Below, one piece after another: positions 23,930-45,399 of a DNA stretch of 64,000 nt; the first letter of the stretch is position 1, and every line of letters starts with the position of its first letter. The stretch lies in the NCBI RefSeq assembly GCF_036971445.1, contig NC_091469.1, positions 249,674,001 through 249,738,000 on the forward strand, read 5' to 3'. Made by a program: the position numbers and the translations under genes. This DNA comes from Narcine bancroftii. Taxonomy: Eukaryota. Under the pieces are notes generated by a model, which had not been told where the DNA came from, did not search any database, and was given only the letters and a program-made list of their open reading frames with translations.

Positions 23930-26900
23930 CCTACACACTGCTCATACCTCCCACACCACACACCCCACCCACACACCCATATACCCCCACCACTCACACC
24001 CTCCCGCACACCCCACCCCCATACATCCCCACAACTTCACACACACCCGCACCCGACAACCCTCATACACCCACCTATCCGCACCCCAACCACCAATAAA
24101 CCCCATATCCGCATCCCACACCCCCATACACCCCACAAATTCACACAAACCCACACCCCACAACCCCCATTTACTCCTAAACCCACACCCCATCCCCCAA
24201 TAACCCACAGACTCGCATCCCATACCCGCATCGGACACCACCACACACCCCCATACCTGCACTCTACACCCCCATACAACCCACAACCTCACATACACCT
24301 GCACCCCACAACCCCATCCCACACACCGTTACATCCCCATACCCACACCCTACACCCCCATACACCCTCACAACCTTACATGCACACATACACCACACCC
24401 CCATACACCCTCAGATCCGAACCCCACCCTCAATAACCCCCATAGCCGCATCCCACACCTCATACACACCCATAACTTCATACATACCCACACCCCACAA
24501 ACCCCATACACCCCTATACACCACCACACCCACACAACCCAACCCACACCCCCATATACCCATACCCATCACCCCCTCCCCCACACCTCACACCCCAACC
24601 CCATACACCCCACAACTTCACACATACCTGGACCACACAACCCCATACCTGTACCCCAAACCCCCATACACCCCCATATCTGCACCCCACACCCCCATAC
24701 CTGCACCCCTTACCCCCATATACCCCCACACCCCAAGCCCCAGCCCCATATACCTCATACACCACCATACAACCCCATACCAGCATCCCACATCCCCATA
24801 TGCTCCCATACCCATACCTCACATCCCACAACCCACCCTCATACACCCTCACAACCTCATACACACCCTTACCCCCTATACACCCCCATACCCACATTTC
24901 ACATCCCTATACACCACTATACACCACCATACCAGCACCCCACACCCCCATATGCCCCCATACCCTACACCCCACACCCCACCCCATACACCCTCACAAC
25001 CTCACACACACCCACACCCCACGCCCCCAATAACCCCCAGACCCACATCGCATACCCCCATACACTCCCATACCCGCATCTCACACCACCATACTCCCTC
25101 ATACCTGCACTCTACGCCCCCATACACCCCACAACCTCACATACATCTGTACCCCACAACCCCATCCCACCCCATACAACTCCATACCCGCACTCTACAC
25201 CCCCACAAACTTACATACACCCATACCACACCCCCATTCACCCCCAGACCAGAATCCCACCCCCAATAACCCCCATAGCTGCATCCCACACCCGATACAC
25301 ATCCACAACTTCATACATACTCACACCCCATAAACCCCATACTCTCCTATACACCACCACACCCCCATACACCCCCACAATCCAACCCACACCCCCATAT
25401 ACCCATATCCCTCACACCCTCCCTCACACCTCACACCCCAACCCCATACACCCCCACAACACACATACCTGGACCCCACAACCCCATACCTGTACCCCAC
25501 ACCCCCATACACCCCCATACCCACATCACACACCCCCATACATTCCCATACTCACATTCCACACCCCCATACCCCCATACACCCCCATATCTGCACCCCT
25601 CACCCCCATACCTGCACCCCTTACCCTATATACCCCCTCACCCCAAACCCTGGCTCCATATACACATACCCCTCACACCCTCCCCAACACCCTCACACCC
25701 CAACCCCATACACCCCCACAACTTCACACATACCGGCACACCACAACCCCATACCTGTACCCCACACCCCCATACACCCACATACTTACATCCCACACCC
25801 CCATACCTGCATTCCATAACCCTATACATGCACATAGTCACATCCCATATGCCATACACCCCCATACCCGCATTCCACACCCCATATACCCCCATACCAG
25901 CACTCAACATCCCACACCCCCATACATCCCCACACCCACATCCCACATCCTCATACACCACCATACACCCCATACCAGCCCCCCACATCCCCATATGCTC
26001 CCATACCCATACCTCACATCCCACACCCCACCCCCATACACCATCACAACCTCATACACAGCCTCACCCCCATATACCCCCATACACCCTCATACCCACA
26101 TCCCACATCCCTATACACGACTATACACCCCAATACCAGCAGCCCACACACCCATATGCCCCCATACCCCACACCCCACCCCATACACTCTCACAACCTC
26201 ACACACCCCCACACCCCACACCCCCACACACCCCCATACCCTCACCCCACACCCCCATACACCCAAATACATCACACCTGCACTCCACACCCCCATACAC
26301 CCCCATACAACATCATACCCGCAACTCACACCCCCATTGACCCACATACCAGCACCCACACCCCCATATGTCCTCATATCCAAACCCACTCATATCCCCA
26401 CCCATATACACCCTCACAACCTCACACACACCTGCACCCCACACCCCCATGCAACCCATACCAGCACCCCACACCCCCATACACCCATATACAACAGCAC
26501 CACCGCACCCCCATATGCCCCATAAAACATACCTGCACCTCACACCACACTGCACACTCACACCACCCAAACCCTCCCACACTCCCTACTATCCCACTCT
26601 CACACACCCCCCACACCCCTTTCTCCCATACACCCACCCCCCCGCCACAAACACACACGCACACAGATACACAGCTCAACGCACACGGACATGACACACA
26701 GTTTACCCAAAGCTCATACCCACCCCAAAGCAAACAAAGACAGTCGCCTCCTCATGAAACACAAGCACACACCTGCCCACTCACACACAGACACAAACCT
26801 CCTCCTCATACACACCCCCACACATTCACCCAAATGTGCACATTCACATAGATACAGACACCAACACACAAACACAACCCTTCCTCATACACACCCCAAC

Positions 26901-27019
26901 CCACTACACCCAAAAACACATCCAAACACATACCCTCACACACAGGCACACCCATACCCCCCACACATACACAAGCCCCTACCTCCCCTCACAGACTCTC
27001 ACACATCCCTACCCCCCCC

Positions 27020-27057
<38 letters not shown>

Positions 27058-28315
27058 AATACACACATATCCTCACACACATGCGCACCCCTACTCTCAG
27101 ACTCATAGACACCCCCTACCCCCCCCACACACACACATATACACAGACAAATACACATATAACCTGACACACACACACACCCCTCCCCTCACAGACTCAC
27201 ACACCCCTACCCACCCACACACACAAATAGACATATACCCTCACACAGACGCGCAACCCTAACTTCACAGACTCACACACACCCCTACCCCTCACACACA
27301 CACACACAAATGCACACATACCCTCACACACACGCACACCCCTACCCTCACAGACTCACACACATCCTTACCACCCACACACACACACATACACACATAC
27401 ACTCACACACACGCGCACCCCGATCCTCACAGACTCACACATCCCCATACCCCCCACACACACACAAAAACATACATGCCCTCACGAACACATGCACCCC
27501 TACCATCACAGACTCACACGCAACCCCTAGCCCCCCCACACACACACACACAAATACACATATACCCTGACACACACGCATACACCTCCCCTCAGACTCG
27601 CACATCCCCATACCCCCACACACACACAAATAGACATATACCCTCACACAGATGCACACCCCTAACCTCAGTCTCACACACCCCTACCCCCTCACACACA
27701 CACAAATACACACATACCCTCACACACACGCACACCCCTACCCTCATAGACTCACACACACCCCTACCCCCCACACACACAAATACACACATACCCTCAC
27801 ACACACACACCCCTACCCTCACAGACTCACACAAATCCTTACCACCCACACACACCAATACACACATACACTCACACACAAGCACAACCCGACCCACACA
27901 GACTCACAGACATCCCATACCACCACCCCACACACACACACACATAAATACACACATACCCTCACGGGCTCACACACACACCCTACCCATCTCACACACA
28001 CACAAATAAACACATACCCTCACACACAGGTGCACCCCTCCCCTCACAGACTCACACACAACCCCCTACCCTCCACCACACACACACAAATACACACATA
28101 CACTCACACACACGCATATTCATACCATACAGACTCTCTCTCACACACAGACACACACACGCACACATATCCTCACAAATGCACACATACCCTCACACAC
28201 ATGCAGACCCCTTCCCTCACAGACTCACACACACCCCTACCTACCCCCCACACACACAAACCCTCACACACATGTACACCCCTACCACACAGACAGTCTC
28301 TCTCTCACCCCCCCC

Positions 28316-28361
<46 letters not shown>
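23930..28361. repeat. C/A-rich low-complexity array filling MYBPC3 intron 1
   Basis: CACCCCCATAC-type motifs, then CACACA/CCCTA motifs, ending in a pure (AC)n next to the exon 1 donor. Confidence 0.95.
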
Positions 28362-28364
<3 letters not shown>

Positions 28365-28371
28365 GCCTCAC

Positions 28372-28396
28372 CTGATTTCTTCCCAGGTTCAGGCAT
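28372..28396 (-). CDS. MYBPC3: MYBPC3 exon 1 coding part (MPEPGKKS-G)
   Basis: ATGCCTGAACCTGGGAAGAAATCAG|GTGAGG; 25 coding nt, phase 1, as human MPEPGKKP-V. Confidence 0.93.
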
Positions 28397-28539
28397 CCTG
28401 TGCTTGTTGGTGTCCAGGTGTCCTGGCTTCTGGTGTCTGATGTGGAATGTCCTGTGTCCAAGTTGCCAGACTCTGGTGTCCAACAACTCGATGTCCCTAT
28501 GACCACCGTCTCTCCCTCCTTTGACACGCTCCCCACACA

Positions 28540-28720
28540 ATAACCTTGAGGATCTGACTTGCGAACATTTAAAGTCCAGACTGACAGACGTCACCATAAA
28601 TCAGCAAACCAGAGATAACCAGGCAGAAAGGACTGAGAAAGAGAGACAGAAATAATCACAGAGACAGATGGGGTGAGATGCCCGTAGATGTCGGGACAGT
28701 TCAGTGACAGATAGACATGC
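28540..28720 (-). promoter_or_regulatory. Putative MYBPC3 proximal promoter
   Basis: Unique sequence upstream of the ATG: TTTAAA 28568-28573, TGACAG 28582 and 28705, CRE-like TGACGTC ~28587-28593, GATA sites AGATAA 28613-28618 and AGATAG 28709-28714. Confidence 0.5.
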
Positions 28721-29439
28721 AGCAACAGAGAAGAAAGAGCCAGCCAAGCAGAGGGAATCTTTCAGCACAGGGACTACCTGACTTCTGGCCTTGTCCTTTC
28801 ATGGACTTCTCCGGATACTTCTTCAGTGTTGCAGGAGGAGTCGTCACCAAGCTTTCAGGCAGAATATTCCAAATATCAACCACCCTCCTACTGGAAAATT
28901 TATTTCTCAGATCCCCTTAAAACCTTTTACTCCCTGCCTATACCTTCTAGACTATGACCACCCACCCCCATCCCCAACCCAGTTCTGTAGACCTCTAACG
29001 TGAAATGCTGGGGATCTGGGGACTGTTGTAGAGCAGAGGGATCAGGAACTGCAGGCACATCCTACTTTGAAACTGATGATACAGGCAGAGAGGGTGGTCA
29101 AACATGCCTTCGACACAGTGGTCTTCAACAGTCAAAGTGTTGGGTGCAGACGTTGGGAGGACAGGTTACGTTTTTAAAAGATGTTGATGAGGCCCCATTT
29201 GGAGAATTGTGGAGTAAAACACGAAATTCTGCAGACACTGCGGTTGAAGGAAAAGCTCTATGCCAGAGAAACTTAGCAGGCCCTACATATAGTGAAGATA
29301 CAATTACAGAACCTAAGTCCTTCGTCAAGGTATGAGAAAAATGTGGGACAGGTGCCTGAATACAATGTTGGGGGGAAGTGGGGGGAGGAGATCAGCCCCA
29401 CGGGGCAGGAAGTAAAACTGTAGTTCCAGACTCGGGACC

Positions 29440-30180
29440 TTTTCATTTTCAACTGGAGCCGAGAAACCAACTGTCTCAACTTCATCCCTTGCCCCTCGTA
29501 TTCTAATCATTCTCCCTCTGAACACTTCAATCTCTCTACAACAATCCCACCTCACCATCAAAACCGCAGAGTGTTGTGGTCTGGCGCACTGACCCCTACC
29601 TTGCCGAGGCCAGACGGCAGCTTAGTCACCCTCTCCTACCTACCCCTTACACTAGAACCCACCATAGCACATCTCCAAACTCATTACTTCTGGCCACCTC
29701 CCTCCCACAGCCACCAACCACATTGTCCCCCATTCCCACATGCTTGTTTTAACTTTCTACCCAGGATACACACACCCAACCATCCGGGTAGACCCATTGT
29801 TTCCTCTTCCTCTTGCCCCAGCAAACTATTTCACTTTGACTAGATTTCTTCTCCCCGGTCCAATCCTTCCCCACCTACATCCACTATACCTTATACGTTC
29901 TCCATCTCTTCAATGACTCTTCCAGGCCAGATCTTCCACACTGTCTGCCTCCTTCCACAAACATGGCTTCCCCTCCACAACTCAGCCCTCACCCGCATCT
30001 CCTCCATTTCCCGCTCACCTGTCCTGGTCCCCTCTTCCCCCAGACACAACAAACACAGGATTCCCCTTCTCCTCAACTACAGACCCAACAGCCTCCATAT
30101 CCAACACATTCTCCTCCAGAATCTCCAGGAACATACAACAGGATCCCACTACGGACAAGTCATTCCCTCTCTTCCCCTCC
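29440..30180 (+). mobile_element. Degenerate Penelope-like element
   Basis: FLPRIHTPNHPGRPIVSSSSCP (Penelope RT LPKIHK...GRPIVS) and RIPLLLNYRP...IQHILL. Confidence 0.7.
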
Positions 30181-30184
30181 AAAA

Positions 30185-33100
30185 TCCAACACAGATACAG
30201 ATGCCAGACACAGACGCCAACACCCAATCCACACACAGACAACACCAACCCCAGACACCACCAAACATCCCAGAGACAGACGCCAACATCAATCTCAGAC
30301 TGAGACACCAACACTCACACCAGATACAGACACCAACACCCACCCCAGACACAGAAGCTAACACCCACCACAGACACAGACATCAACACCCACCCCAGAC
30401 ACAGATGCCAACACCCACCCCAGACACAGACAGCAACTCCCACCTAGACACAAATGCCAACACCCACCCGAGAGACAGACGCCAACACCCACAACAGACA
30501 CAGACGCCAAAACCCACCCAGACACAGACACTAACACCCACTCCAGACAGACACCAACATCCATCAAAGACACAGACACCAACACCCACCCGAGACACAG
30601 ACACCAATACCCACCCAAGACACACATGCCAACACCCACCCCAGACACAGATACCAACACCAACCCCAGACACAGACGGCAACACCCACCCCAGACACAG
30701 ACGCCAACACCCAATCCACACACAGACACCAACACCCAACACAGACACAGACAACACCAACCCCAGACACCACCAAACATCCCAGAGACAGACGCCAACA
30801 TCAATCTCAGACTGAGACACCAACACTCACACCAGACACAGACACCAACACCCACCCCAGACACAGAAGCTAACATCCACCACAGACACAGACATCAACA
30901 CTAACCCCAGACACAGATGCCAACACCCACCCCAGACACAGACAGCAAATCCCACCTAGACACAAATGCCAACACCCACCCGAGAGACAGACGCCAACAC
31001 CCACAACAGACACAGACGCCAAAACCCACCCAGACACAGACACTAACACCCACTCCAGACAGACACCAACATCCATCAAAGACACAGACACCAACACCCA
31101 CCCGAGACACAGACACCAATACCCACCCAAGACACACATGCCAACACCCACCACAGACACAGATACCAACACCAACCCCAGACACAGATGCCAACACCCA
31201 CCCAGACACAAATGCCAACACCCACCCAAAAGACAGACGCCAACACACACAACAGACACAGACGCCAACACCCATCCAAGACATAGACACCAACAGCCAC
31301 ACCAGACACAGACACCAACACCCACCCCAGACACAGACACCAATACCCACCCAAGACACAGACGTCAAAACTCACACCGAACACAGATACCAACACCCAC
31401 GCAAGACACAGACGCCAACACCCAGCCCAGATACAGATACCAACAACCACCTGAGAGACAGACGCCAACGCCCACAAAAGACACAGATGCCAACAACCAC
31501 TCCAGACACAGACACCAACATCCACCAAAGACACAGACACCAACACCCACCCAAGAGGCAGACACCAACACCTACACGAGACACAGACACCAACACCCAC
31601 CCCAGACACAGACGCCAACACCCACCCGACACAGACACCAACAACCACCCAAGACACAGATAACAACACCCACCTGAGACACAGACGGCAACATCCACCA
31701 CAGACAGAATACCAACAACCACCCGAGACACAGACATCAGCACCCACGCCACACACAGACACCATCATCCACCCAAGACACAGACACCAACACCCATCCC
31801 AGACACAGATACCAACACACACCTGAGACACAGACTTCAACACACACCCCAGACACAGATGTGAACACTCACCCAAGACAAAAATGCAAACACCCACCCG
31901 AGACACAGACGCCAACACCCACCCCAGTCACAGATACCAACACCAACCCCAGACACAGATGCCAACATCCACCCAGACACAAATGCCAACACCCACCCAA
32001 AAGACAGACGCCAACACACACAACAGACACAGACGCAAACACCCATCCAAGACATAGACACCAAGAGCCACACCAGACACAGACACCAACACCCACCCCA
32101 GACACAGACACCAACACCCACCCAAGACACAGACGTCAACACCCAGCCCAGATACAGATACCAACAACCACCTGAGAGACAGACGCCAACACCCACAAAA
32201 GACAGAGATGACAACAACCACTCCAGACACAGACACCAACATCCACCAAAGACACAGACACCAACACCCACCCAAGACGCAGACACCAACACATACCCGA
32301 GACACAGACACCAACACCCAACCCATACACAGACGCCAACACCCACCCGACACAGACACCAACAACCACCCAAGACACAGATAACAACACCCACCTGAGA
32401 CACAGACGGCAACACCCACCCCAGACAGAATACCAACAACCACCCGAGACACAGACATCAACACCCACGCCAGACACAGACACCATCATCCACCCAAGAC
32501 ACAGACACCAACACCCACCCCAGACACAGATACCAACACACACCTGAGACACAGACGTCAACACACACCCCAGACACAGATGTGAACACTCACCCCAGAC
32601 AAAAATGCAAACACCCACCCGAGACACAGACGCCAACACCCACCCCAGACACAGACACCAACACCCACCCAAGACACAGACGTCAACACCCACCCCGGAC
32701 ACAGATACCAACACCTACCTGAGACACTGACGCCAACACCCACCCCAGACACAGACACCAACACCCACCTGAGAGACAGATGCTAACACCCACAACAGAC
32801 ACAGATGCCAACACACACTCCAGACACACACACCAACATCCACCAAAGACACAGACACCAACACCCACCCAAGACACAGACACCAACACCCACCCCAGAC
32901 ACAGATACCAACACCAACCCCAGACACAGATGCCAACACCAACCCAGACACAAATGCCTACACCCACACAAAAGACAGACGCCAACACACACAACAGACA
33001 CAGACGGCAACACCCATCCAAGACATAGACACCAACAACCGCACCAGACACAGACACCAACACCCACCCCAGACACAGACACCAACACCCAACCAAGACA

Positions 33101-36100
33101 CAGACGTCAACACCCACACCGAACACAGATACCAACACCGACCCAAGACACAGATGCCAACACCCAGCCCAGATACAGATACCAACAACCACCTGAGAGA
33201 CAGACGCCAACGCCCACAAAAGACACAGATGCCAACAACCACTCCAGACACAGACACCAACATCCACCAAAGACACAGACGCCAACACCCACGCCAGACA
33301 CAGACACCAACACCCACCCAAGACACAGACGTCAACACCCACACCGGACACAGATACCAACACCCACCCAAGACACAGACGTCATCACCCACCCCGGACA
33401 CAGATACCAACACCCACCTGAGACACAGACGCCAAAACCCACCCCAGACACAGACACAAACACCCACCTGAGAGACAGATGCTAACACCCACAACAGACA
33501 CAGATGCCAACACCCACTCCAGACTCAGACACCAACATCCACCAAAGACACAGACACCAACACCCACCCAAGACACAGACACCAACACCCTCCCCAGACA
33601 CAGATACCAACACCAACCCCAGACACAGATGCCAACACCAACCCAGACACAAATGCCTACACCCACACAAAAGACAGACGCCAACACACACAACAGACAT
33701 AGACGGCAACACCCATCCAAGACATAGACACCAACTACCGCACCAGACACAGACACCAACACCCACCCCAGACACAGACACCAACACCCAACCAAGACAC
33801 AGACGTCAACACCCACACCGAACACAGATACCAACACCGACCCAAGACACAGATGCCAACACCCAGCCCAGATACAGATACCAACAACCACCTGAGAGAC
33901 AGACGCCAACACCCACAAAAGACACAGATGCCAACAACCACTCCAGACACAGACACCAACATCCACCAAAGACACAGACACCAACACCCACCCAAGACGC
34001 AGACACCAACACCTACCCAAGACACAGACACCAAAACCCACCCCAGACACAGACGCCAACACCCACCCGACACAGATACCAACAACCACACAAGACACAG
34101 ATAACAACACCCACCTGAGACACAGACGGCAACACCCTCCCCAGACACAGATACCAACACCAACCCCAGACACAGATGCCAACACCAACCCAGACACAAA
34201 TGCCTACACCCACACAAAAGACAGACGCCAACACACACAACAGACATAGACGGCAACACCCATCCAAGACATAGACACCAACAACCGCACCAGACACAGA
34301 CACCAACACCCACCCCAGACACAGACACCAACACCCAACCAAGACACAGACGTCAACACCCACACCGAACACAGATACCAACACCGACCCAAGACACAGA
34401 TGCCAACACCCAGCCCAGATACAGATACCAACAACCACCTGAGAGACAGACGCCAACACCCACAAAAGACACAGATGCTAACAACCACTCCAGACACAGA
34501 CACCAACATCCACCAAAGACACAGACACCAACACCCACCCAAGACGCAGACACCAACACCTACCCAAGACACAGACACCAAAACCCACCCCAGACACAGA
34601 CGCCAACACCCACCCGACACAGATACCAACAACCACACAAGACACAGATAACAACACCCACCTGAGACACAGACGGCAACACCCACCCCAGACACAGACA
34701 CCAACACCCACCTGAGAGACAGATGCTAACACCCACAACAGACACATATGCCAACATCCACTCCAGACTCAGACACCAACATCCACCAAAGACACAGACA
34801 CCAACACCCACCCAAGACACAGACACCAACACCCACCCCAGACACAGATACCAACACCAACCCCAGACACAGATGCCAACACCCACCCAGACACAAATGC
34901 CAACACCCACCCAAAAGACAGACGCCAACACACACAACAGACACAGACACCAGCACCCACCCCAGACACAGACACCAACACCCACCCAAGACACAGACTT
35001 CAACACCCACACCGAACACAGATACCAACACCCACCCAAGACACAGACGCCAACACCCAGCCCAGATACAGATACCAACAACCACCTGAGAGACAGACGC
35101 CAACACCCACAAAAGACACAGATGTCAACAACCACTCCAGACACAGACACCAACATCCACCAAAGACACAGACACCAACACCCACCCAAGACGCAAACAC
35201 CAACACCTACCCGAGACACAGACACCAACACCCACCCCAGACACAGACGCCAACACCCACCCGACACAGACACCAACAACCACCCAAGACACAGATGCCA
35301 ACACCCACCCAGACACAAATGCCAACACCCACCCCAGACACAGACACCAACACCCACCTGAGAGACAGACGCCAACACCCACCCAGACATAGACACCAAC
35401 AACCACCTGAGAGACAGACGCCAACACCCACAAAAGACACAGATGTCAACAACCACTCCAGACACAGACACCAACATCCACCAAAGACACAGACACCAAC
35501 ACCCACCACAGACGCAGACACCAACACCTACCCAAGACACAGACACCAACACCCACCCCAGACACAGATGCCAACACCCACCCGACACAGACACCAACAA
35601 CCACAAAAGACACAGATGCCAACACCCACCCAGACACAAATGCCAACACCCACCCCAGACACAGACACCAACACCCAACTGAGAGACAGACGCCAACACC
35701 CACCCCAGACATAATACCAACAACCACCCGAGACACAGACATCAACACCCACCTGAGACACAGACGTCAACACACACCCCAGACACAGATGTGAACACTC
35801 ACCCCAGACAAAAATGCAAACACCCACCCGAGACATAGACGCCAACACCCACCCCAGACACAGACACCAACACCCACCCAAGTCACAGACGTCAACACCC
35901 ACACCGGACACAGATACCAACACCCACCCAAGACACAGACGTCAACACCCACCCCGGACACAGATACCAACATCCACCAAAGACACAGACACCAAAACCC
36001 ACCCAAGACGCAAACACCAACACCTACCCGAGACACAGACACCAACACCCACCCGACACAGACACCAACAACCACCCAAGACACAGATGCCAACACCCAC

Positions 36101-38180
36101 CCAGACACAAATGCCAACACCCAACCCAGACACAGACACCAACACCCACCTGAGAGACAGACGCCAACACCCACCCAGACATAGACACCAACAACCACCT
36201 GAGAGACAGACGCCAACACCCACAAAAGACACAGATGTCAACAACCACTCCAGACACAGACACCAACATCCACCCAAGACGCAGACACCAACACCTACCC
36301 AAGACACAGACACCAACACCCACCCCAGACACAGATGCAAACACCCACCCGACACAGACACCAACAACCACCAAAGACACAGAGGCCAACACCCACCCAG
36401 ACACAAATGCCAACACCCACCCCAGACACAGACACCAACACCCACCTGAGAGACAGACGCCAACACCCACCCAGACATAGACACCAACAGCCACTCCAGA
36501 CACAGACACCAACACCCACCCAAGACACAGACACCAACTCCCACCCGAGTCACAGACACCAACACCCACCCGAGACACAGACGCCAACACCCACCCCAGA
36601 CAGAGACACCAACACCCACCCAAGACACAGATACCAACACCCACCTGAGAGACAGACGGCAAAACCCACCCCAGACACAGACACCAACAACCACCCGAGA
36701 CACAGACACCAGCACCCACCCCAGACACAGACGCCAACACCCACCCCAGACACAGACACCAACACCCACCCCAGACACAGACACCAACAACCACCCAAGA
36801 CACAGATACCAACACCCACCTGAGAGACAGACGCCAACACCTACAAATGACACAGATGCCAACAACCACTCCAGACACAGACACCAACATCCACCAAAGA
36901 CACAGACACCAACACCCACCCAAGACGCAGACACCAGCACCTACCCGAGACACAGACACCAACACCCACGCCAGACACAGACGCCAACACCCACCCCAGA
37001 CACAGGAATCAACACCAACCCCAGACAGAGATGCCAAAACCCTCTCCAGACACAGTACCAACAACCACCCGAGTCACAGACTCCAACACCCACCCCAGAC
37101 ACAGACACCAACAACCACCCAAGACACAGATACCAACACCCACCTGAGACACAGACGTCAACACACACCCCAGACAAAGATGTGAACATTCACCCCAGAC
37201 AAAAATGCAAACACCCACCCGAGACACAGACGCCAACACCCACCCCAGACACAGACACCAATACCCACCCAAGACACAGACGTCAACACCCACACCGGAC
37301 ACAGATACCAACACCCACCCAAGACATAGACGTCAACATCCACCCCGGACACAGATACCAACACCCACCTGAGACACAGACGCCAACACCGACCCCAGAC
37401 ACAGACACAAACACCCACCTGAGAGACAGACGCCAACACCCACAACAGACACAGATGCCAACACCCACTCCAGACACAGACGCCAACACCCACCCCAGAC
37501 ACAGACACCAAATCCCACCCCAGACAGAGACACCAACACCCACCCCAGACAGAGACGCCAACACCCACCCAAGATACAGATGCCAACACCCACCCCTGAC
37601 ACAGACATCAACACCCACAGCAGACACAGATGTGAATACCCACCCCAGATACAAATGCCAACTCCCACCTGAGACACAGACACCAACACCCACCCCAGAC
37701 ACAGACACCAAAGCCCACCACAAACACAGACACCAACACCCACCCAAGACACAGACGCCAACACCCACCCCTGACACAGACATCAACACCCACACCAGAC
37801 ACAGATGTGAACACCCACCCCAGACACAAATGCCAACACCCACCTGAGACACAGACACCAACACCCACCCACCCGAGACCCAGACACCAATACCCATCGC
37901 AGACACAGACACCAACACCCACTCCAGACACAGATACCAACACCCAGCCAAGACACAGACACCAACACCCACCCCAGACACAGATACCAACACCCACCCG
38001 AGACACAGGTGCCAACACCCACCCCAGACACAGGTACCAACACCCACCCCAGAGAGAGATGCCTGCACCCACCCCAGACCCAAAAGCCAACACCCACCTT
38101 AGACACAACACCAATACCCACCCCTGACAGAGACGCCAACACCCACCCCAGACACATACATCAACACCCACACCAGACAC
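30185..38180. repeat. 8-kb satellite, ~26-bp unit CAGACACAGACACCAACACCCACCC with higher-order duplications
   Basis: About 300 degenerate units; blocks of about 0.5-0.7 kb recur. Confidence 0.97.
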
Positions 38181-38241
38181 AATTTTCCTACATATTTTGT
38201 TCTAACTGTGTGGGCACTAGATGCAAGACTTCACTCTTAAT

Positions 38242-39293
38242 CTCTTCTTTGGCTTGGCTTCGCGGACGAAGATTTATGGAGGGGGTAAAAAGTCCACGTC
38301 AGCTGCAGGCTCGTTTGTGGCTGACAAGTCCGATGCGGGACAGGCAGACACGATTGCAGCGGTTACAAGGGAAAATTGGTTGGTTGGTGTTGGGTGTTGG
38401 GTTTTTCCTCCTTTGCCTTTTGTCAGTGAGGTGGGCTCTGCGGTCTTCTTCAAAGGAGGTTGCTGCCCGCCAAACTGTGAGGCGCCAAGATGCACGGTTT
38501 GAGGCGTTATCAGCCCACTGGCGGTGGTCAATGTGGCAGGCACCAAGAGATTTCTTTAGGCAGTCCTTGTACCTTTTCTTTGGTGCACCTCTGTCACGGT
38601 GGCCAGTGGAGAGCTCGCCATATAATACGATCTTGGGAAGGCGATGGTCCTCCATTCTGGAGACGTGACCCATCCAGCGCAGCTGGATCTTCATAAGCGT
38701 GGACTCGATGCTGTCGACCTCTGCCATCTCGAGTACTTCGACGTTAGGGGTGTAAGCGCTCCAATGGATGTTGAGGATGGAGCGGAGACAACGCTGGTGG
38801 AAGCGTTCTAGGAGCCGTAGGTGGTGCCGGTAGAGGACCCATGATTCGGAGCTCTTCAATCTGAGGCGCCTGCAAGCTCACACCAAGACACAAGAGAAAC
38901 TTGTCCGTGAACTACTCTTTGCAGATGATGCCGCTTTAGTTGCCCATTCAGAGCCAGCTCTTCAGCGCTTGACGTCCTGCTTTGCGGAAACTGCCAAAAT
39001 GTTTGGCCTGGAAGTCAGCCTGAAGAAAACTGAGGTCCTCCATCAGCCAGCTCCCCACCATGACTACCAGCCCCCCCACATCTCCATCGGGCACACAAAA
39101 CTCAAAACGGTCAACCAGTTTACCTATCTCGGCTGCACCATTTCATCAGATGCAAGGATCGACAATGAGATAGACAACAGACTCGCCAAGGGAAATAGCG
39201 CCTTTGGAAGACTACACAAAAGAGTCTGGAAAAACAACCAACTGAAAAACCTCACAAAGATAAGCGTATACAGAGCCGTTGTCATACCCACAC
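38242..39293 (-). mobile_element. RTE-clade LINE, 5'-truncated and 5'-inverted (copy 2)
   Basis: 3' part minus (38242-38852), upstream part plus (38852-39295, includes LFADDAAL); 11-bp TSD TCACTCTTAAT at 38231-38241 and 39294-39304. Confidence 0.95.
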
Positions 39294-39407
39294 TCACTCT
39301 TAATAGTCAGATACTAATTAACAATTTAATTTATGTTTTTAATTATATCAAATTGACTTTAAATGTCCAGATTATCTTGCCTTAATTGGCACAGGCTGGA
39401 ACGAAAA

Positions 39408-39762
39408 GGGACCCACACCAGGCTGCGGGCTGCTGGAGACTGCGGTCAAGAGACCCACACTAGGTTGCGGACTGCTGGATATTGCAGTCAAGGGACCCAC
39501 ACCAGGTTGCGGACTGCTGGAGGTTGCAGTCAAGGGACTCACACCAGGCTGCGGGCTGCTGGAAACTGCGGTAAAAGAACCCACACCAGGCTGCGGACTG
39601 CTGGAGACTGCAGTCAAGGAACCCATAGCAGGCTGCAGGGTGCTGGAGACTGTAGTCAAGAGATCTACAGCAGGGTGCGGACTGCTGGAGACGGCAGTCA
39701 GAGGACCCACACCAGGTTGCGGACTGCTGGTGACTGCGGTCAAGGGACCCACACCAGGCTGC
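39408..39762. repeat. 42-bp minisatellite, about 8.5 copies
   Basis: GGGACCCACACCAGGCTGCGGACTGCTGGAGACTGCAGTCAA. Confidence 0.92.
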
Positions 39763-40047
39763 AGTCTGATGGAATGAAATATGAAAATCTGCAGATGCTA
39801 TGATTGTAGTGAAAAAACAGAAATGCTGGAGGAAGTCAGCCGGACTCTCCACACCCATAGGAGGTAAAGATATGTTACTGACACTTCAGGCCTGAGCCTT
39901 TCCTCAATGAATGAGTAAAAAAGCAGGCAGGCACCTATTTAAAAGAGTGAAACACAGTCGGCTGCAGACACTGTGATTGTAGTAAACACACAGAGATGCT
40001 GAAGGAAGTCAGCTGGTCTTTTCAGTATCTATAGGAGACAAAGACAT

Positions 40048-43000
40048 TGTGGTGGTACACCACCGGCCTACTGCAGGGGGCAACCTCTGTACCTGCAGGA
40101 GTGTAAGGGGACAGTACAACACCTGGCCGGCTGTCAATCAGTCGGTCTGAATGGATCAAGCCCTACCCAGTCGGGTGTCAATCACCCTCTGGGATATATA
40201 AGCCTGTGCTGGCCTCGCGAGGCCTCACTCAGAGTTATTGCAGCCACAGCCAGCCTGGCTCTGTGGAAGTCTTTGTGGATTAAAGCCTGTTGAACAATCT
40301 TTACCTTGTGTGTGTCTGATTCTGTCCAATAGCACACCACAATTTAATCCACAAAATTTTTCCTACGGCTGGAAAAATTCCTGTCCGCAGAGAGCCTCGA
40401 AGTCGACCCACGCCACCCAGAAGCCCAGACATGCTTCGAGATCTGGCAGCACGCAGTCAAGACAATCATCGAGGCACACGAGGGCTACATCGTGGACTCT
40501 GATCAGAAGAGGTTGGTCCTACTCCGGTCAAAGCTGGGTCCCCGCGCCTTCCAGATAACCAAACACTGCTCCACGTACAAGAGCACAATGGACACTCTCG
40601 AGAACTTGTACAGGCCCCCCAAGAATGTGGTCTGTGCAAGGTAACTCCTCAACACCCAAGCCCAGTGAACCCGGGGAGACAGCTGAATCTTGCCAGGGAC
40701 ACTTGCGAGAGTTGGCCCGACCGTGTCTGGCTGAACCCAGGGTAGGTGTAGAGGATGTCAAAAGGTTGATCTAGGATGCCTTCGTCTGAGGGCTACGCTT
40801 GAGGACAACATCTATGCCCTAACCAAGACAGTGGAAGTGGTCCGAACCCTGGAAGCTGCAGCCCTGCACGTCAAAGCCTTCAATTTCAGGTTCCCCCAGG
40901 CCCCCTCATGGCCCTCTCACGCTGCAGCTGCAGCCCCAGGCTGAGCTGTGGAGAAGAACGTCGCTCTGGCAGGTCCCCAGTGCCCCTGTAAGTACTGTGG
41001 GTTCTGGTGTGAGTCAGATCGACGATCACGCCAAAACTGCCCAGCTAGGAACCAGTATTGCTCCCGATGCGGCAAGAAAGGCCACTTTTCAAACGTTTGC
41101 CTCTCTCAACTTGCCGGCAGCTCAGCAGCCCTCTATGACCTCCCCACCTCTCCCGCGGACCCCCCCACATGCACGTGCCGGGTGGCACTATTGTCCCCAC
41201 GTCGACTTCCCCCTTCCCCGACTTCGACTGCGCAACATCCGGCCCCACCAGCGACCATCACAGCATGTGCCACGAGCATCTGCACCAGCCCCTGCCCTCG
41301 CCGGCACCACTCACTGAGAACTAGTGACATCAATTCCGGCTGGCTCATGGCGTGATGTGACTTCCGGCTGACCCAACGACGTAACTGCCGCCGGCCGTGA
41401 TGACGTCACTTTTCCAGCACAGCGGACACAGCTGGGGAAGGAGGCCAACCACGTAGTGGCTCCCCATGTGCTGCCGCCATCTTGGGCCAGGCAGCGCCAG
41501 ACACAGAAGGCCCCTGACGACATTGAGAATGACGTGGTCAACTCGGGTGATGACCAGGCTGCCCTATCGATGCTCCCCACGCCTCCGGAGGCCATCAGCT
41601 ACCACATGCTCCACCTCATGACCGATATCAACATGGTCAACACGGGTGTTGATCAGGTCACCCTACTGAAGCTCCCCATCCCTCCTGATAGTGACGACTC
41701 CGAGATGGTCCTGGCCACCATCATGCTGACCAGGTACATCCCCCACGATCTCGGGCGCTCGATGATGGATGTGTGAGTCAACGGGCAGGTAACAAAGTGC
41801 TTGTTGGACAGTGGCGGCACCGAGAGCTTCATTCACCCAAGCATGGCCCACTCCCTAAGGTTAAAGGTCCACCCCACCACCTGCTCGATCACCCTCGCCA
41901 TAAGAATGTTGGTATGCTCGGGCGCAGCTTGGTCGATATAATAGTGGGAGGGGAGACTTACACAGGATTTAGGTTCCTGGTCATGCCCAAACTCTGCGCA
42001 CCACTCCTCCTGGGCCTGGATTTTCAGTGCCACCTGCAGAGTGTCACCCTTGCCTTTGGGGGGGGCCCAACCTCCACTCACATTGCACGGCACACCAACC
42101 TACCAGCCCCAGCTGACCTGTGGGCTCTCCACACTGCACATCACCCCACTGGTGCCCTTTCCACATCTTGCGCTAAGCTGCAAGCCGATCGCTGCCAGAA
42201 GTAGGTGCTATTGCACTGCAGACAAGGATTTCATCAAGGCGAAGGTGTGGTGACTCCTGGTGGAAGGTGTTTTAGACCTCAGTAACAGCCCTGGGAGAGC
42301 CCAAGTCCTGGTGGTCAAAGGGGGAAGTAAATTGAGGATGGTCATGGATTACAGCCAGACAATTAATCGGTACACTCAGCTGGATGCCTACCCCTGCCGA
42401 GGATCGCTGACATGGTCAATGAGATAGCCCACTACCAGGCTTTCTCCACGATTGACCTGAAGTCGGCATATTACCAAATCCCTATTCATCCGAAGGACAA
42501 GCCCTACACCGCCTTTGAGGTGGACGGGCACCTGTACCAGTTCCGCCAAGTTCCTTTTGGAGTCACGAACTGGGTCTCCATCTTCCAGCAGGAGATGGAT
42601 CGCATTGTAGACTGGCACAAGCTGAAGGCGACGTTCCCATATCTGGATAATGTCACTATCTGCGGCCATGACCAGCAGGACCACAATGCTAACCTGGAAA
42701 AATTCTTCCAGACGGCCAGGGAGGTCAACCTCATTTACAACAAGAAGTTTGTGTTCAGCATCACTCGCCTCGCCATCCTGGGGTACATCGTGGCCCATAG
42801 AGTCGTCGGCCCAGATCCGGAAAGAATGCACCTATTAATGGAGTTAACCCTCCCCCCAACACTAAAGTGCCTCCACAGGTGCCTGGGCCTGTTTTCTTAT
42901 TACTCACAGTGGGTCCTTCGCTTCTCAGACAAGGTCCGCCCACTGGCCAAAGCCAAAACACTTCCCCTCCCACCTGAGGCGCAGGCACCCTTCACCCTGA

Positions 43001-44966
43001 TCAGGCAAGACATCGCGGATGCCACGATGCAGGCTGTGGATGAGGACTCCCCCTTCCAGGTGGAGAGCGATTTCTCTGAGGTAGCCCTCGCCGCTACCCT
43101 CAATCAAGAGGGTCACCCTGTCGCTTTTTCCTCCAGGACCCTCCACGGCTCCAAGCTAGGGCATTCCGCCATTGAAAAGGCCCAGGTGATTGTGGAAGTG
43201 GTCCGCCACTGGTGCCACTACCTGGACGGCAGGAGATTCACCCTCTTTATGGACCAGCAGCCTGTGGTGTTCATGTCTAACACTTCCCACAAGAGCAAGA
43301 TCATGAATGACAAGCTCCTGCGCTGGAGAGTCGAGCTGGCAACCTACAGCTATGACATCCAGTACCGCCCCGGGAAGTTTAGCAACTCCCCTGATGTCGT
43401 CTCTCGCACCTGCGTGTCTATGCATGATGACAGGTTGCAGGCATTGCATGAGTCCCTCTGCTATCCGGGCATCACCTGGTGGTACCATTTCGTTAAGTCC
43501 CGAAATCTGCCGTACACCATCAGGGACGTCAGGGACATGACCAAGGCCTGTCGGGTCTGTGCGGAGTGTAAACCCCACCTTCCACTCCCCCCAGGCCCAC
43601 TTTATAAAGGCTACTCAGCCTTTCGAGCCTCTCGGCATGGACTTCAAAGGGCTCCTCCCTTCCACGAACCGAAACATCTACTTCCTCACAGTAGTGGATG
43701 AGTACTCACGCTTTCCTTTCACCATCCCTTGTCCGGACACCTCCACGGCCATCGTCATCAGGGCCTTGGGGCAGATTTTCACCATGTTTGGCTACCCCGC
43801 CTTCATTCATAGGGAGTCTAGTTTCATGAGCGATGAGCTGCGCCAGTACCTGATGGTGAGGGGCATCGTGACCAGTCACACGACAAGCTATAACCCGAGA
43901 GGCAATGGGCAAGTGGAACACAAGAATGGGGTGGTCTGAAAGGCAGTCCTCCTAGCTCTCAGGTCAAAAGGGTGGGCCATTGAGTACTGGCAGGACGCCC
44001 TGCCCGAGGCGCTCCATGCCATTCGGTCCCTGCTGTGCACGGCTACCAATGAGACCCCTCACGAACGCCTGATCTCATTCCCCAGGAGATCGGCGACTGG
44101 AATGTCACTCCCAGCATGGCTCACATCCCCGGGACGTGCTTCTGCGTAAGCATGTATGGATACACAAGGCCGAAGCCCTGGTAGAGCAGGTTTTCCTCCT
44201 TCATGCAAACCATAACTACGCTTATGTTAGGTTCAGCAGTGGCAGGGAGGACACCATCTCAACCAGGGACCTGGCACCAGCAGGAGCACCCACCACATCA
44301 CGCCACCCTCCAATCCAGGATGACGCTGCCCCAGGCAGCTATGGGGCACGCAGGGCCTCCTTGACCACCAGGGGCCCGCTTCAGCCTTAGGAGATGAACA
44401 AGCCCCCCCCCACCCATCCAATACTACCCACATACGTCAACCCCAGCCCCCCTGGCCACCCCTCCACATGGCATCACACCAGCCACACACACCCCTGCCG
44501 CCAGCCCCCCCCCCACTTCCCCTCTGACCAATGACCAGGAGCCAGTCCTACGACGGTCACAGAGACCCCGGTGGCTGCCGAATCGTTTCAACCTGTAAAT
44601 ATTGTATGTACATAATGGGTGAGATTCCTTGTTACTGCCACCACCCCCCTGGGACATTTTAAAGAAGGGGTGAATGTGGTGGTACACCACCGGCCTACTG
44701 CAGGGGGCAACTTCTGTACCTGCAGGAGTGTAAGGGGACAGGAAAACACCTGGCCGGCTCCCAATCAGTCAGCCTGAATGGATCAAGCCCCACCCGGTCG
44801 GATGTCAATCACCCTCCGGGATATAAGCCTGTGCCGGCCTCCTGAAGCCTCACTCAGAGTTGCTGCAGCCACAGCCATCCTGGCTCTGTGGAAGTCTTTG
44901 TGGATTAAAGCCTGTTGTCCAGTCTTTACCTTGTGTGTGTCTGATTCTGGCTAACAGCGCACCACA
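40048..44966 (+). mobile_element. Full-length decayed Ty3/Gypsy LTR retrotransposon (Mag-like gag knuckles)
   Basis: LTRs 40048-40341 and 44675-44966 (TGTGGTG...CACCACA); TSD GACAT/GATAT (5 bp, 1 mismatch); PPT AAAGAAGGGGTGAA 44661-44674. Confidence 0.93.
40365..44290 (+). pseudogene. Gypsy gag-pol, multiple stops and frameshifts
   Basis: CKYCG...CPARNQYCSRCGKKGHFSNVC; protease LLDSG (~41800); IDLKSAY, PFG, YLDN; RNase H; integrase MDFKG, VVDEYSRFPF, YNPRGNGQVE. Confidence 0.88.
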
Positions 44967-45399
44967 GATATATCACCGACGTTTCGGGCCTGAGCCCCTC
45001 TTCACGGAACAATCAGAAAGGGCAGAAGCAGGATATATAAGAAAGTCTCAGAATTCAAACAATGGGGGAGGAATCCAGACCAACAACAGTTGCTCATTGA
45101 CATTAAGACTCAACTTTATTGTCCTTGTGGCAAGTACAGATTCAAAGCCAATGAAATGCGATTAGCATCTAACCAGAGGTGCAAAGAACAAAGTTATTTA
45201 CAAGCAACTGCGAATAAAAGCAAACGCTCCAGCAAGCAAACACGTATAAAAGTACTGACAATACAATATGGTGCAATGCCACTCAGGGCTGTTATGTAAG
45301 GGTCAGCAGGGTCACAGCCTTCCTGAGCCTGCTGGTTCGGGAGCGGAGGTTCCTGTAACCCCTACTGGATGGAGGGAGATTTCAGGTGAGATGCATTCT

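What the first reader, a model, noticed from the sequence alone, without database searches (positions are those of the whole stretch)
40272..40355. Gypsy element with no tRNA PBS: a perfect 13-nt complement of its own LTR poly(A) signal sits in the PBS position
Seen: one base after the 5' LTR end the sequence is TTTAATCCACAAA (40343-40355), with no TGG. It is the exact reverse complement of TTTGTGGATTAAA (40272-40284) in the LTR, a segment ending in the ATTAAA hexamer and unchanged in the otherwise diverged 3' LTR (44898-44910). The pairing points the 3' end of the LTR segment at the LTR boundary, as a primer would. Known: Tf1/sushi chromoviruses self-prime using the first ~11 nt of the transcript. 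Here the complement lies ~70 nt past the TATA box (40195), so probably not at the cap site, and the element looks Mag-like with no evident chromodomain. Inference: a distinct tRNA-independent priming mode and/or a switch that masks the poly(A) signal only in the 5' LTR.
Basis: partly seen in the sequence, partly recalled or inferred. Interest (0 to 1): 0.8.

Follow-up and report, generated by a model that had tools for sequence, protein, structure and literature searches.

The report
Self-priming Gypsy clade in animals
This dead jumping gene and its distant relatives carry, where a host tRNA normally binds, a perfect mirror copy of a short piece of their own terminal repeat that changes in step with it, so the group likely starts copying itself with its own RNA, and the same pairing is predicted to hide the repeat's poly(A) signal at the front end.

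Summary
Confirmed. One base after the 5' LTR lies a perfect 13-nt complement of an LTR segment ending in ATTAAA; 0 of 20,000 shuffles reach 12 nt. It is clade-wide: 20 representatives from this genome and from metagenomes have different sequences, yet 256 of 260 pairs are Watson-Crick and each site fits its own LTR best (0 of 100,000 permutations). The spacer to the LTR end is always one base. Compensated transversions occur within families. No tRNA fits (28 tested), while a control Gypsy family matches tRNA-Ser over 14 nt.

Best reading (0.78): self-priming, likely by an RNase H cut at the duplex end, as in Tf1. The clade has no chromodomain and lies apart from the fish chromoviruses sampled. 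In this genome the segment sits about 45 nt past the likely start site and is the poly(A) hexamer. Poly(A) masking is a plausible second role, not the sole one: 4 of 21 families keep the duplex without the hexamer.

Start site, cut and masking are untested. This scan noted apparently the same clade in three other genomes. New variant of a known kind.

The parts
40043..40047 (.). left target-site flank (4 of 5 bases match the right flank)
40048..40341 (+). 5' LTR (TG..CA)
   Evidence: loose ends at 40047-40048
40195..40201 (+). TATA-like box
   Evidence: kept in sister copies; function inferred
40224..40229 (+). initiator-like site about 30 nt after the TATA box; likely start site
   Evidence: sequence; consensus recalled; not mapped
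40272..40284 (+). LTR arm of the duplex (predicted 3' end of the self-primer); its last 6 nt, 40279-40284, are the ATTAAA hexamer
40306..40325 (+). GT-rich stretch 22-41 nt after the hexamer, like a downstream poly(A) element
   Evidence: role inferred
40342..40342 (+). one-base spacer between LTR end and primer site
   Evidence: 20 of 20; fixed by the search pattern in 9 of these, but also seen in LTR-defined loci
40343..40355 (+). PBS-position arm, perfect complement of 40272-40284
40945..41355 (+). gag remnant with a weak CCHC zinc-knuckle match; broken frame
   Evidence: E 0.094, below cut-off
41807..41815 (+). protease-type Asp-Ser-Gly codons in a broken frame
   Evidence: read by eye; no Pfam hit for the one frame tested
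42367..43440 (+). reverse transcriptase and RNase H, unbroken frame, YLDN motif
43541..43939 (+). integrase core, after RNase H; no chromodomain found downstream
44661..44670 (+). polypurine tract
44675..44966 (+). 3' LTR; its copy of the arm (44897-44909) has no partner downstream
44967..44971 (.). right target-site flank

Best explanation
The 13 bases after the 5' LTR are complementary to a segment of the element's own LTR and covary with it across a wide chromodomain-less Gypsy clade, so they are likely a self-primer binding site: the R-region segment would fold onto them, the element's RNase H would likely cut at the segment's 3' end as in Tf1, and the new 3' end would prime minus-strand DNA one base from the LTR end. 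Shown: the complement, its covariation, the register, the lack of TGG, the conserved RNase H acidic residues. Inferred: priming (about 0.8); a cut in cis by RNase H (about 0.65); in this genome a capped primer of roughly 45-60 nt, because the likely start site is well upstream of the segment (about 0.5); hiding of the 5' poly(A) hexamer as a second use of the same duplex, possible only at the 5' end because the partner lies outside the LTR (about 0.5).
For: (1) Cross-family covariation: 256 of 260 pairs Watson-Crick in 20 representatives; at pairs 5-13 own-family match 8.8 of 9 against 4.6 for other families, 0 of 100,000 permutations. (2) Sets chosen by RT only: of 13 metagenome loci whose LTR pair reached the 5' LTR end, 10 have a perfect duplex of 13 nt or more, 3 an imperfect one, none TGG; of 20 own-genome loci, 13 gave an LTR pair with a CA end and all 13 carry the duplex, 11 scored 12-13 of 13 and 2 had the boundary misplaced by my script. 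(3) Register: an extra A in the arm is met by an extra T in the site, keeping the arm's end one base from the LTR end (L032, L183 family). Priming needs this register; masking would not (inference). (4) Within families: L047 differs from six sisters of 97.8-98.8% identity by a compensated transversion present in both LTRs and in the site; in the window's family all 15 copies with both letters of pair 8 changed are compensated; among 8 arm variants with a readable 3' LTR, the 7 found only in the 5' LTR are uncompensated and the 1 found in both LTRs is compensated. (5) No host primer: longest complement to 28 tRNAs of this genome is 5 nt for the window and at most 8 nt for 20 representatives; a control family matches the tRNA-Ser 3' end over 14 nt and has no self-complement. 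(6) The three RNase H aspartates are kept in 22 of 22 relatives and the E-K-E-A-type motif in 21 of 22. (7) A second helix is predicted to start at the first base after the arm in 14 of 21 families, like an inner duplex of the Tf1 'pretzel' (passages).
Against: No start site, poly(A) site, cut or primer was observed; the RNA data were contigs only. The 20 representatives were picked as the best-paired copy of each family, 9 of them through a pattern that fixed pairs 1-4, the three following bases and the spacer, and two (L047, L049) are one family, so the permutation value is inflated by selection and kinship. Three of 15 pattern-picked LTR junctions pair at only 7-10 of 13. 34 of 52 metagenome loci scanned showed no such duplex; many are short or lack an LTR pair, so they neither confirm nor refute. 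The second helix is not predicted in the window's own copy or in the young L183 family, and no third 'pretzel' duplex was seen. My prediction that the mismatched G/A copies would be recombinants with a main-family body failed: they carry the subfamily body. Mismatched copies exist (7 of 22 subfamily copies), so one mismatch is tolerated or arose later. Covariation shows a selected duplex, not priming as such. The tRNA set was incomplete (14 anticodons) and snRNA 3' ends were not tested one by one.
Confidence: 0.78

Rival explanations
1. The duplex is mainly a switch that hides the promoter-proximal poly(A) signal in the 5' LTR, as the HIV-1 poly(A) hairpin is thought to do; priming uses something else.
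For: A[A/T]TAAA lies in the arm in 17 of 21 families and flips only between AATAAA and ATTAAA in this genome, with the partner compensating; a GT-rich stretch follows; elements with the signal in R must suppress it (review passages, PMC12789967).
Against: 4 of 21 families keep a perfect duplex without the hexamer, 2 of them with a canonical hexamer further down. The one-base register would not be needed. No other primer site is visible. G-U pairs, expected in a purely structural helix (general knowledge), are 2 of 260 (picked copies).
Confidence: 0.08
2. Self-priming, but from the copy of the arm in the 3' R region (same or co-packaged RNA), freed by trimming or cutting off the last bases and the poly(A) tail.
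For: The arm is present at both ends of the transcript if it lies in R; mixed 5'/3' LTR states in 5 of 14 subfamily copies suggest exchange between molecules.
Against: The 5' arm is 36-66 nt from the site and would pair first (inference); the Tf1 precedent is a cut near the 5' end.
Confidence: 0.07
3. Plain Tf1-type priming from the first 13 or so bases of the transcript: the real start site is at the arm and the upstream TATA-like box is not the one used.
For: Tf1 uses its first 11 bases; Tf2 has alternative start sites; 7 of 9 metagenome families show no TATA-like match upstream.
Against: TATA-like boxes lie 73-93 nt before the arm's end in 8 of 12 own-genome families and none lies 30 nt before the arm in the window (loose pattern written after seeing the sequences). 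This reading overlaps with the best explanation in chemistry and differs only in primer length.
Confidence: 0.05
4. A host RNA (tRNA half, small RNA) primes at this site and the LTR match is incidental or a decoy.
For: Half-tRNA primers are known in other LTR elements; my tRNA set was incomplete.
Against: The site differs from family to family and follows each family's own LTR, within one genome too; no tRNA match above 8 nt; no Rfam family at threshold.
Confidence: 0.02

Closest known systems
Tf1/Tf2 (Schizosaccharomyces pombe), Tj1 and the Tf1/sushi group of chromoviruses
   Same: Ty3/gypsy domain order; no tRNA site; PBS complementary to an LTR-derived stretch; RNase H available for a cut; often a second helix next to the duplex (passages of PMC7175516, PMC4600332, bioRxiv 10.1101/2022.12.06.519325).
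   Different: No chromodomain (0 of 8 scanned, 0 of 120 listed); RT about 25% identical to fish chromoviruses and outside them in a quick tree; arm likely internal to R and overlapping the poly(A) hexamer instead of being the first 11 bases; no full three-duplex structure found.
Predicted self-primers of the Tcn1 (gypsy) and TAR (copia) lineages of plants
   Same: Called on the same criterion: 10 nt or more of LTR complement starting 0-5 nt after the 5' LTR (PMC6317226, passages), which this element meets.
   Different: Different lineages and hosts; covariation and overlap with the poly(A) signal are not mentioned in the passages I saw.
HIV-1 poly(A) hairpin and other 5' poly(A)-site suppression in retroviruses
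   Same: A poly(A) hexamer in R held in a helix (PMC12789967, passages).
   Different: Here the partner lies outside the LTR, at the primer site, so the helix can form only at the 5' end; the HIV hairpin lying within R is recalled, not read.
Cigr-1 clade (Ciona; also molluscs) and Mag/Tor lineages of non-chromovirus Gypsy
   Same: Lead only: an ascidian relative is in the clade (P0097) and size (about 4.0-4.9 kb, one frame of about 1,200 codons, short LTRs, 5-bp target duplication) fits what I recall of Cigr-1. PMC6238403 lists Cigr-1 as a small clade, filed under Mag in its supplement.
   Different: Not tested: no named sequence was available and the original paper is not held, so a prior remark on its primer site cannot be excluded.

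Membership tests
Ty3/gypsy LTR retrotransposon | two TG..CA LTRs, target duplication, polypurine tract | tested here: met
   perfect 5-bp duplications in young relatives
Ty3/gypsy LTR retrotransposon | order protease - RT - RNase H - integrase | tested here: met
tRNA-primed LTR elements | TGG-started site complementary to a tRNA 3' end | tested here: not met
   5 nt at most for the window against 28 tRNAs; control family 14 nt
Self-priming LTR elements (sequence criterion of PMC6317226) | 10 nt or more of LTR complement starting 0-5 nt after the 5' LTR | tested here: met
   13 nt at offset 1; covarying
Tf1/sushi chromoviruses | chromodomain at the integrase C-terminus | tested here: not met
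   0 of 8 full-length relatives, 0 of 120 listed; fish chromoviruses show it in the same table format
Tf1/sushi chromoviruses | RT groups inside the chromovirus clade | tested here: not met
   quick tree, 7 fish chromoviruses only; not nested, but a sister position is unresolved and fungal members were not sampled
Tf1/sushi chromoviruses | [quoted passage not shown] | tested here: inconclusive
   TATA-like spacing argues for an internal arm; no start site mapped
Tf1/sushi chromoviruses | three-duplex 'pretzel' structure | tested here: inconclusive
   second helix predicted in 14 of 21 families, third not seen; local folds only
Tf1/sushi chromoviruses | RNase H cut that releases the primer | not testable with these tools
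   catalytic residues conserved; the cut needs biochemistry
Gmr1-like (integrase before RT) | integrase upstream of RT | tested here: not met
   such elements in this genome form a separate clade
Mag or Cigr-1 lineage | RT groups with named Mag, SURL or Cigr-1 references | not testable with these tools
   no named references obtainable; apart from the tRNA-Ser-primed family of this genome, whose Mag label is recalled

The most novel reading that the evidence does not exclude
An independent, animal-wide origin of self-primed reverse transcription in which the primer's 3' end is the poly(A) hexamer itself: one duplex first blocks premature polyadenylation at the 5' LTR, then is cut to give a capped primer of about 45-60 nt, and copying that primer in the plus strand rewrites the primer site from the LTR, so the two arms stay matched after a single mutation.
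Probability: 0.38. Interest if true: 0.78.

Novelty: new variant of a known kind. Interest (0 to 1): 0.62.

Why it matters
In the papers I could read, self-priming among Ty3/gypsy elements is tied to the Tf1/sushi chromoviruses. A second, chromodomain-less clade, with RT relatives in rays, sharks, a sea anemone, a coral, an ascidian, a sea slug, insects and worms, would make tRNA-free priming a repeated invention. It bears on whether hairpin priming is ancestral or derived in LTR elements. If the primer is an internal R segment that is also the poly(A) signal, it links two standing problems of LTR elements (making a primer, silencing the 5' poly(A) site) in one 13-bp helix that can be tested on a 130-nt RNA. 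In practice, tRNA-PBS filters would miss or misclassify this abundant clade.

Tried and rejected
RNA mapping: no RNA holder was listed as such; three runs of guessed RNA kept as contigs were laid twice and gave no start or poly(A) site. Viral contigs: 0 of 90 candidate stretches encoded a relative. The loose junction pattern was not enriched genome-wide (18,978 against 18,116) and served only as a list; 5 of the 20 places picked from its first 100 were not LTR junctions. Pair 7 double changes: none. Recombinant origin of the mismatched G/A copies: rejected. Rfam: two matches far below threshold. The careful tree did not finish; both trees are quick ones, with L124 and L128 left out as too short. 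Naming the clade failed. Ten literature searches listed no paper on self-priming in such a clade; most subscription papers, Repbase reports and the primary Tf1 papers are not held, one supplement of PMC6238403 was unreadable and bioRxiv supplements were closed, so absence from print is not established.

Full report
OBSERVATION. The window holds a dead Ty3/gypsy element from 40048 to 44966 with LTRs of 90-93% identity, a polypurine tract and broken gag, protease and integrase frames around an unbroken RT-RNase H frame. One base after the 5' LTR stands TTTAATCCACAAA (40343-40355), the exact reverse complement of 40272-40284, which ends in ATTAAA. None of 20,000 shuffled LTRs gave a complement above 11 nt. 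The host is a 3.33-Gb animal genome; the closest named RT relatives, at 60-65%, come from rays and sharks. The family is large: 696 junction matches against 27 for the control; 25 of the 30 best copies keep a perfect duplex and 5 have one mismatch.

COVARIATION ACROSS FAMILIES. An RT alignment fetched 80 metagenome loci at 36-58% identity. I searched 47 of them for LTR pairs. In 13 the pair reached the end of the 5' LTR; 10 carry a perfect duplex of 13-16 nt starting one base after the LTR, three an imperfect one (L031, and L099/L100, one decayed element seen twice), none a TGG. An inverted-repeat scan of 52 loci found the same geometry in 18; most of the other 34 are short or have no LTR pair. 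In the own genome, 20 places picked from a pattern list gave 15 LTR junctions, 12 pairing at 12-13 of 13 and three at 7-10, and 5 unrelated places. Twenty loci chosen by RT alone gave 13 LTR pairs with a CA end, in three families, all with the duplex. For 20 representatives, 256 of 260 pairs are Watson-Crick, 2 are G-T and 2 mismatch; at pairs 5-13 each site matches its own LTR at 8.8 of 9 and other LTRs at 4.6, and no permutation of 100,000 reached the observed sum. These were the best-paired copies, nine were found with a pattern that fixed pairs 1-4, and kin are not independent, so the RT-chosen sets carry more weight than the permutation value.

REGISTER AND WITHIN-FAMILY CHANGES. In two families the arm has one more A and the site one more T, leaving the arm's 3' end paired one base from the LTR end. 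L047 differs from six sisters of 97.8-98.8% identity by a transversion in both LTR arms and the matching change in the site. In the window's family I took 14 copies with an arm variant: of the 8 with a readable 3' LTR, 7 have it only in the 5' LTR and are uncompensated, and 1 has it in both and is compensated. Genome-wide, all 15 copies changed on both sides of pair 8 show that same compensated state, and none is changed on both sides of pair 7. They form a subfamily that also holds both mismatched states. This fits a site that is rewritten from the primer, but does not prove it: my prediction that one mismatched class would have a main-family body failed, and 5 of 14 copies have discordant LTRs. 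It is one subfamily event, not fifteen.

NO HOST PRIMER. Against 28 distinct tRNAs of this genome (14 anticodons, incomplete) the window's site matches 5 nt at most and the representatives 8 nt at most, all internal. A control Gypsy family of the same genome starts with TGG, matches the tRNA-Ser 3' end over 14 nt and has no self-complement. Rfam gave nothing at threshold. A single host RNA cannot follow a site that changes with each family's LTR (inference).

WHERE THE ARM LIES. In the window the TATA-like box is at 40195 and an initiator-like site near 40227, so the arm begins about 45 nt into the transcript; a GT-rich stretch follows the hexamer (consensus motifs recalled). TATA-like matches lie 73-93 nt before the arm's end in 8 of 12 own-genome families, but in only 2 of 9 metagenome families at 58-70 nt (loose pattern). 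A[A/T]TAAA is within the arm in 17 of 21 families; four keep a perfect duplex without it, two of them with a canonical hexamer further down. A second helix is predicted to begin at the first base after the arm in 14 of 21, not in the window's copy. RNA contigs showed neither start nor poly(A) site.

MECHANISM. Tf1 pairs its first 11 bases with the PBS, and RNase H cuts between bases 11 and 12 to make the primer (review passage, PMC7175516); a three-duplex structure is required (passages, bioRxiv 10.1101/2022.12.06.519325). By analogy the arm here likely pairs in cis and is cut at its 3' end. The RNase H acidic residues are conserved in the relatives aligned. After such a cut about 58 nt would be copied first, with only the stretch between cut and poly(A) site left for strand transfer (inference). 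Because the partner lies outside the LTR, the helix can hide the hexamer only at the 5' end, which elements with the signal in R need (review passages, PMC12789967). Priming explains the register and the four hexamer-free families; masking alone does not. I put self-priming at 0.78-0.8 and the dual role with a long primer at about 0.4.

FAMILY. No chromodomain in 8 of 8 full-length relatives scanned or in the 120 listed, whereas fish chromoviruses show it. In quick trees the element and its relatives form one clade (SH-aLRT 100) apart from 7 fish chromoviruses, the tRNA-Ser family and integrase-first elements, each about 25% identical; the order among these four is unresolved. The duplex occurs in several subclades. 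So it works like Tf1 but is not filed under Tf1/sushi. Cigr-1 is a recalled lead, untested.

LITERATURE AND EARLIER NOTES. Seen as passages: PMC6317226, PMC6238403 (and rows of three supplements), PMC3601003, PMC4600332, PMC5341516, PMC7175516, PMC5006619, PMC6934838, PMC13524379, PMC12789967 and the bioRxiv preprint above. They place self-priming in Tf1/sushi, Tcn1 and TAR copia, and name unexplained non-tRNA sites in Skipper, GalEa and Tcn2-5. Ten searches listed nothing on this clade; the primary Tf1, sushi and Cigr-1 papers were not read. Three earlier notes of this scan describe what looks like the same clade in other genomes; they agree but are not independent evidence, and look-ups by place and sequence were empty.

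VERDICT. Real, selected and clade-wide; most likely self-priming with a possible second role in poly(A) masking. New variant of a known kind; interest 0.62.

Noticed in passing
window 42367-43440 and proteins P0001-P0240: The RT active-site motif is YxDN in 185 of 240 relatives, YxDD in 32 and not matched in 23. YVDN also turns up in a search listing of BEL/Pao papers.
   Followed up: partly
L216-L240, L204 (subfamily of the window's family): 5' and 3' LTRs of the same copy differ at the compensated arm position in 5 of 14 readable subfamily copies, and all four arm/site combinations occur. Unexplained; exchange between co-packaged RNAs or later conversion.
   Followed up: partly
window 40355-40385 and relatives: An ATG lies 14-33 nt from the start of the primer site in 17 of 20 representatives, so the duplex sits next to the likely gag start and could affect translation.
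   Followed up: no
window 40301-40306; L032, L047, L064, L080: A TTACCT motif (a splice-donor match on the opposite strand) recurs in unrelated LTRs of the clade, on either side of the arm; no chance control run.
   Followed up: no
L183-L196: A young family of the clade in this genome has 240-nt LTRs of 97-100% identity and a duplex one base longer at its inner end.
   Followed up: partly
window 40000-40047 and 44967-45030: The element sits inside another repeat: contigs join position 40044 to the sequence that follows the 3' LTR, i.e. the empty site.
   Followed up: no
window 39363-39824; 38299-39385; about 24000-38200: A 42-nt tandem repeat of 8 units, LINE-like RT fragments in opposite orientations (label recalled) and long C/A-skewed arrays with 24-25-nt units.
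   Followed up: no
L131-L133, L146; L141-L143, L150; L134: Other Gypsy groups in this genome: integrase-first elements with a five-base spacer before a TGGG site, a tRNA-Ser-primed family with 178-nt LTRs, and a decayed chromovirus-like copy.
   Followed up: partly
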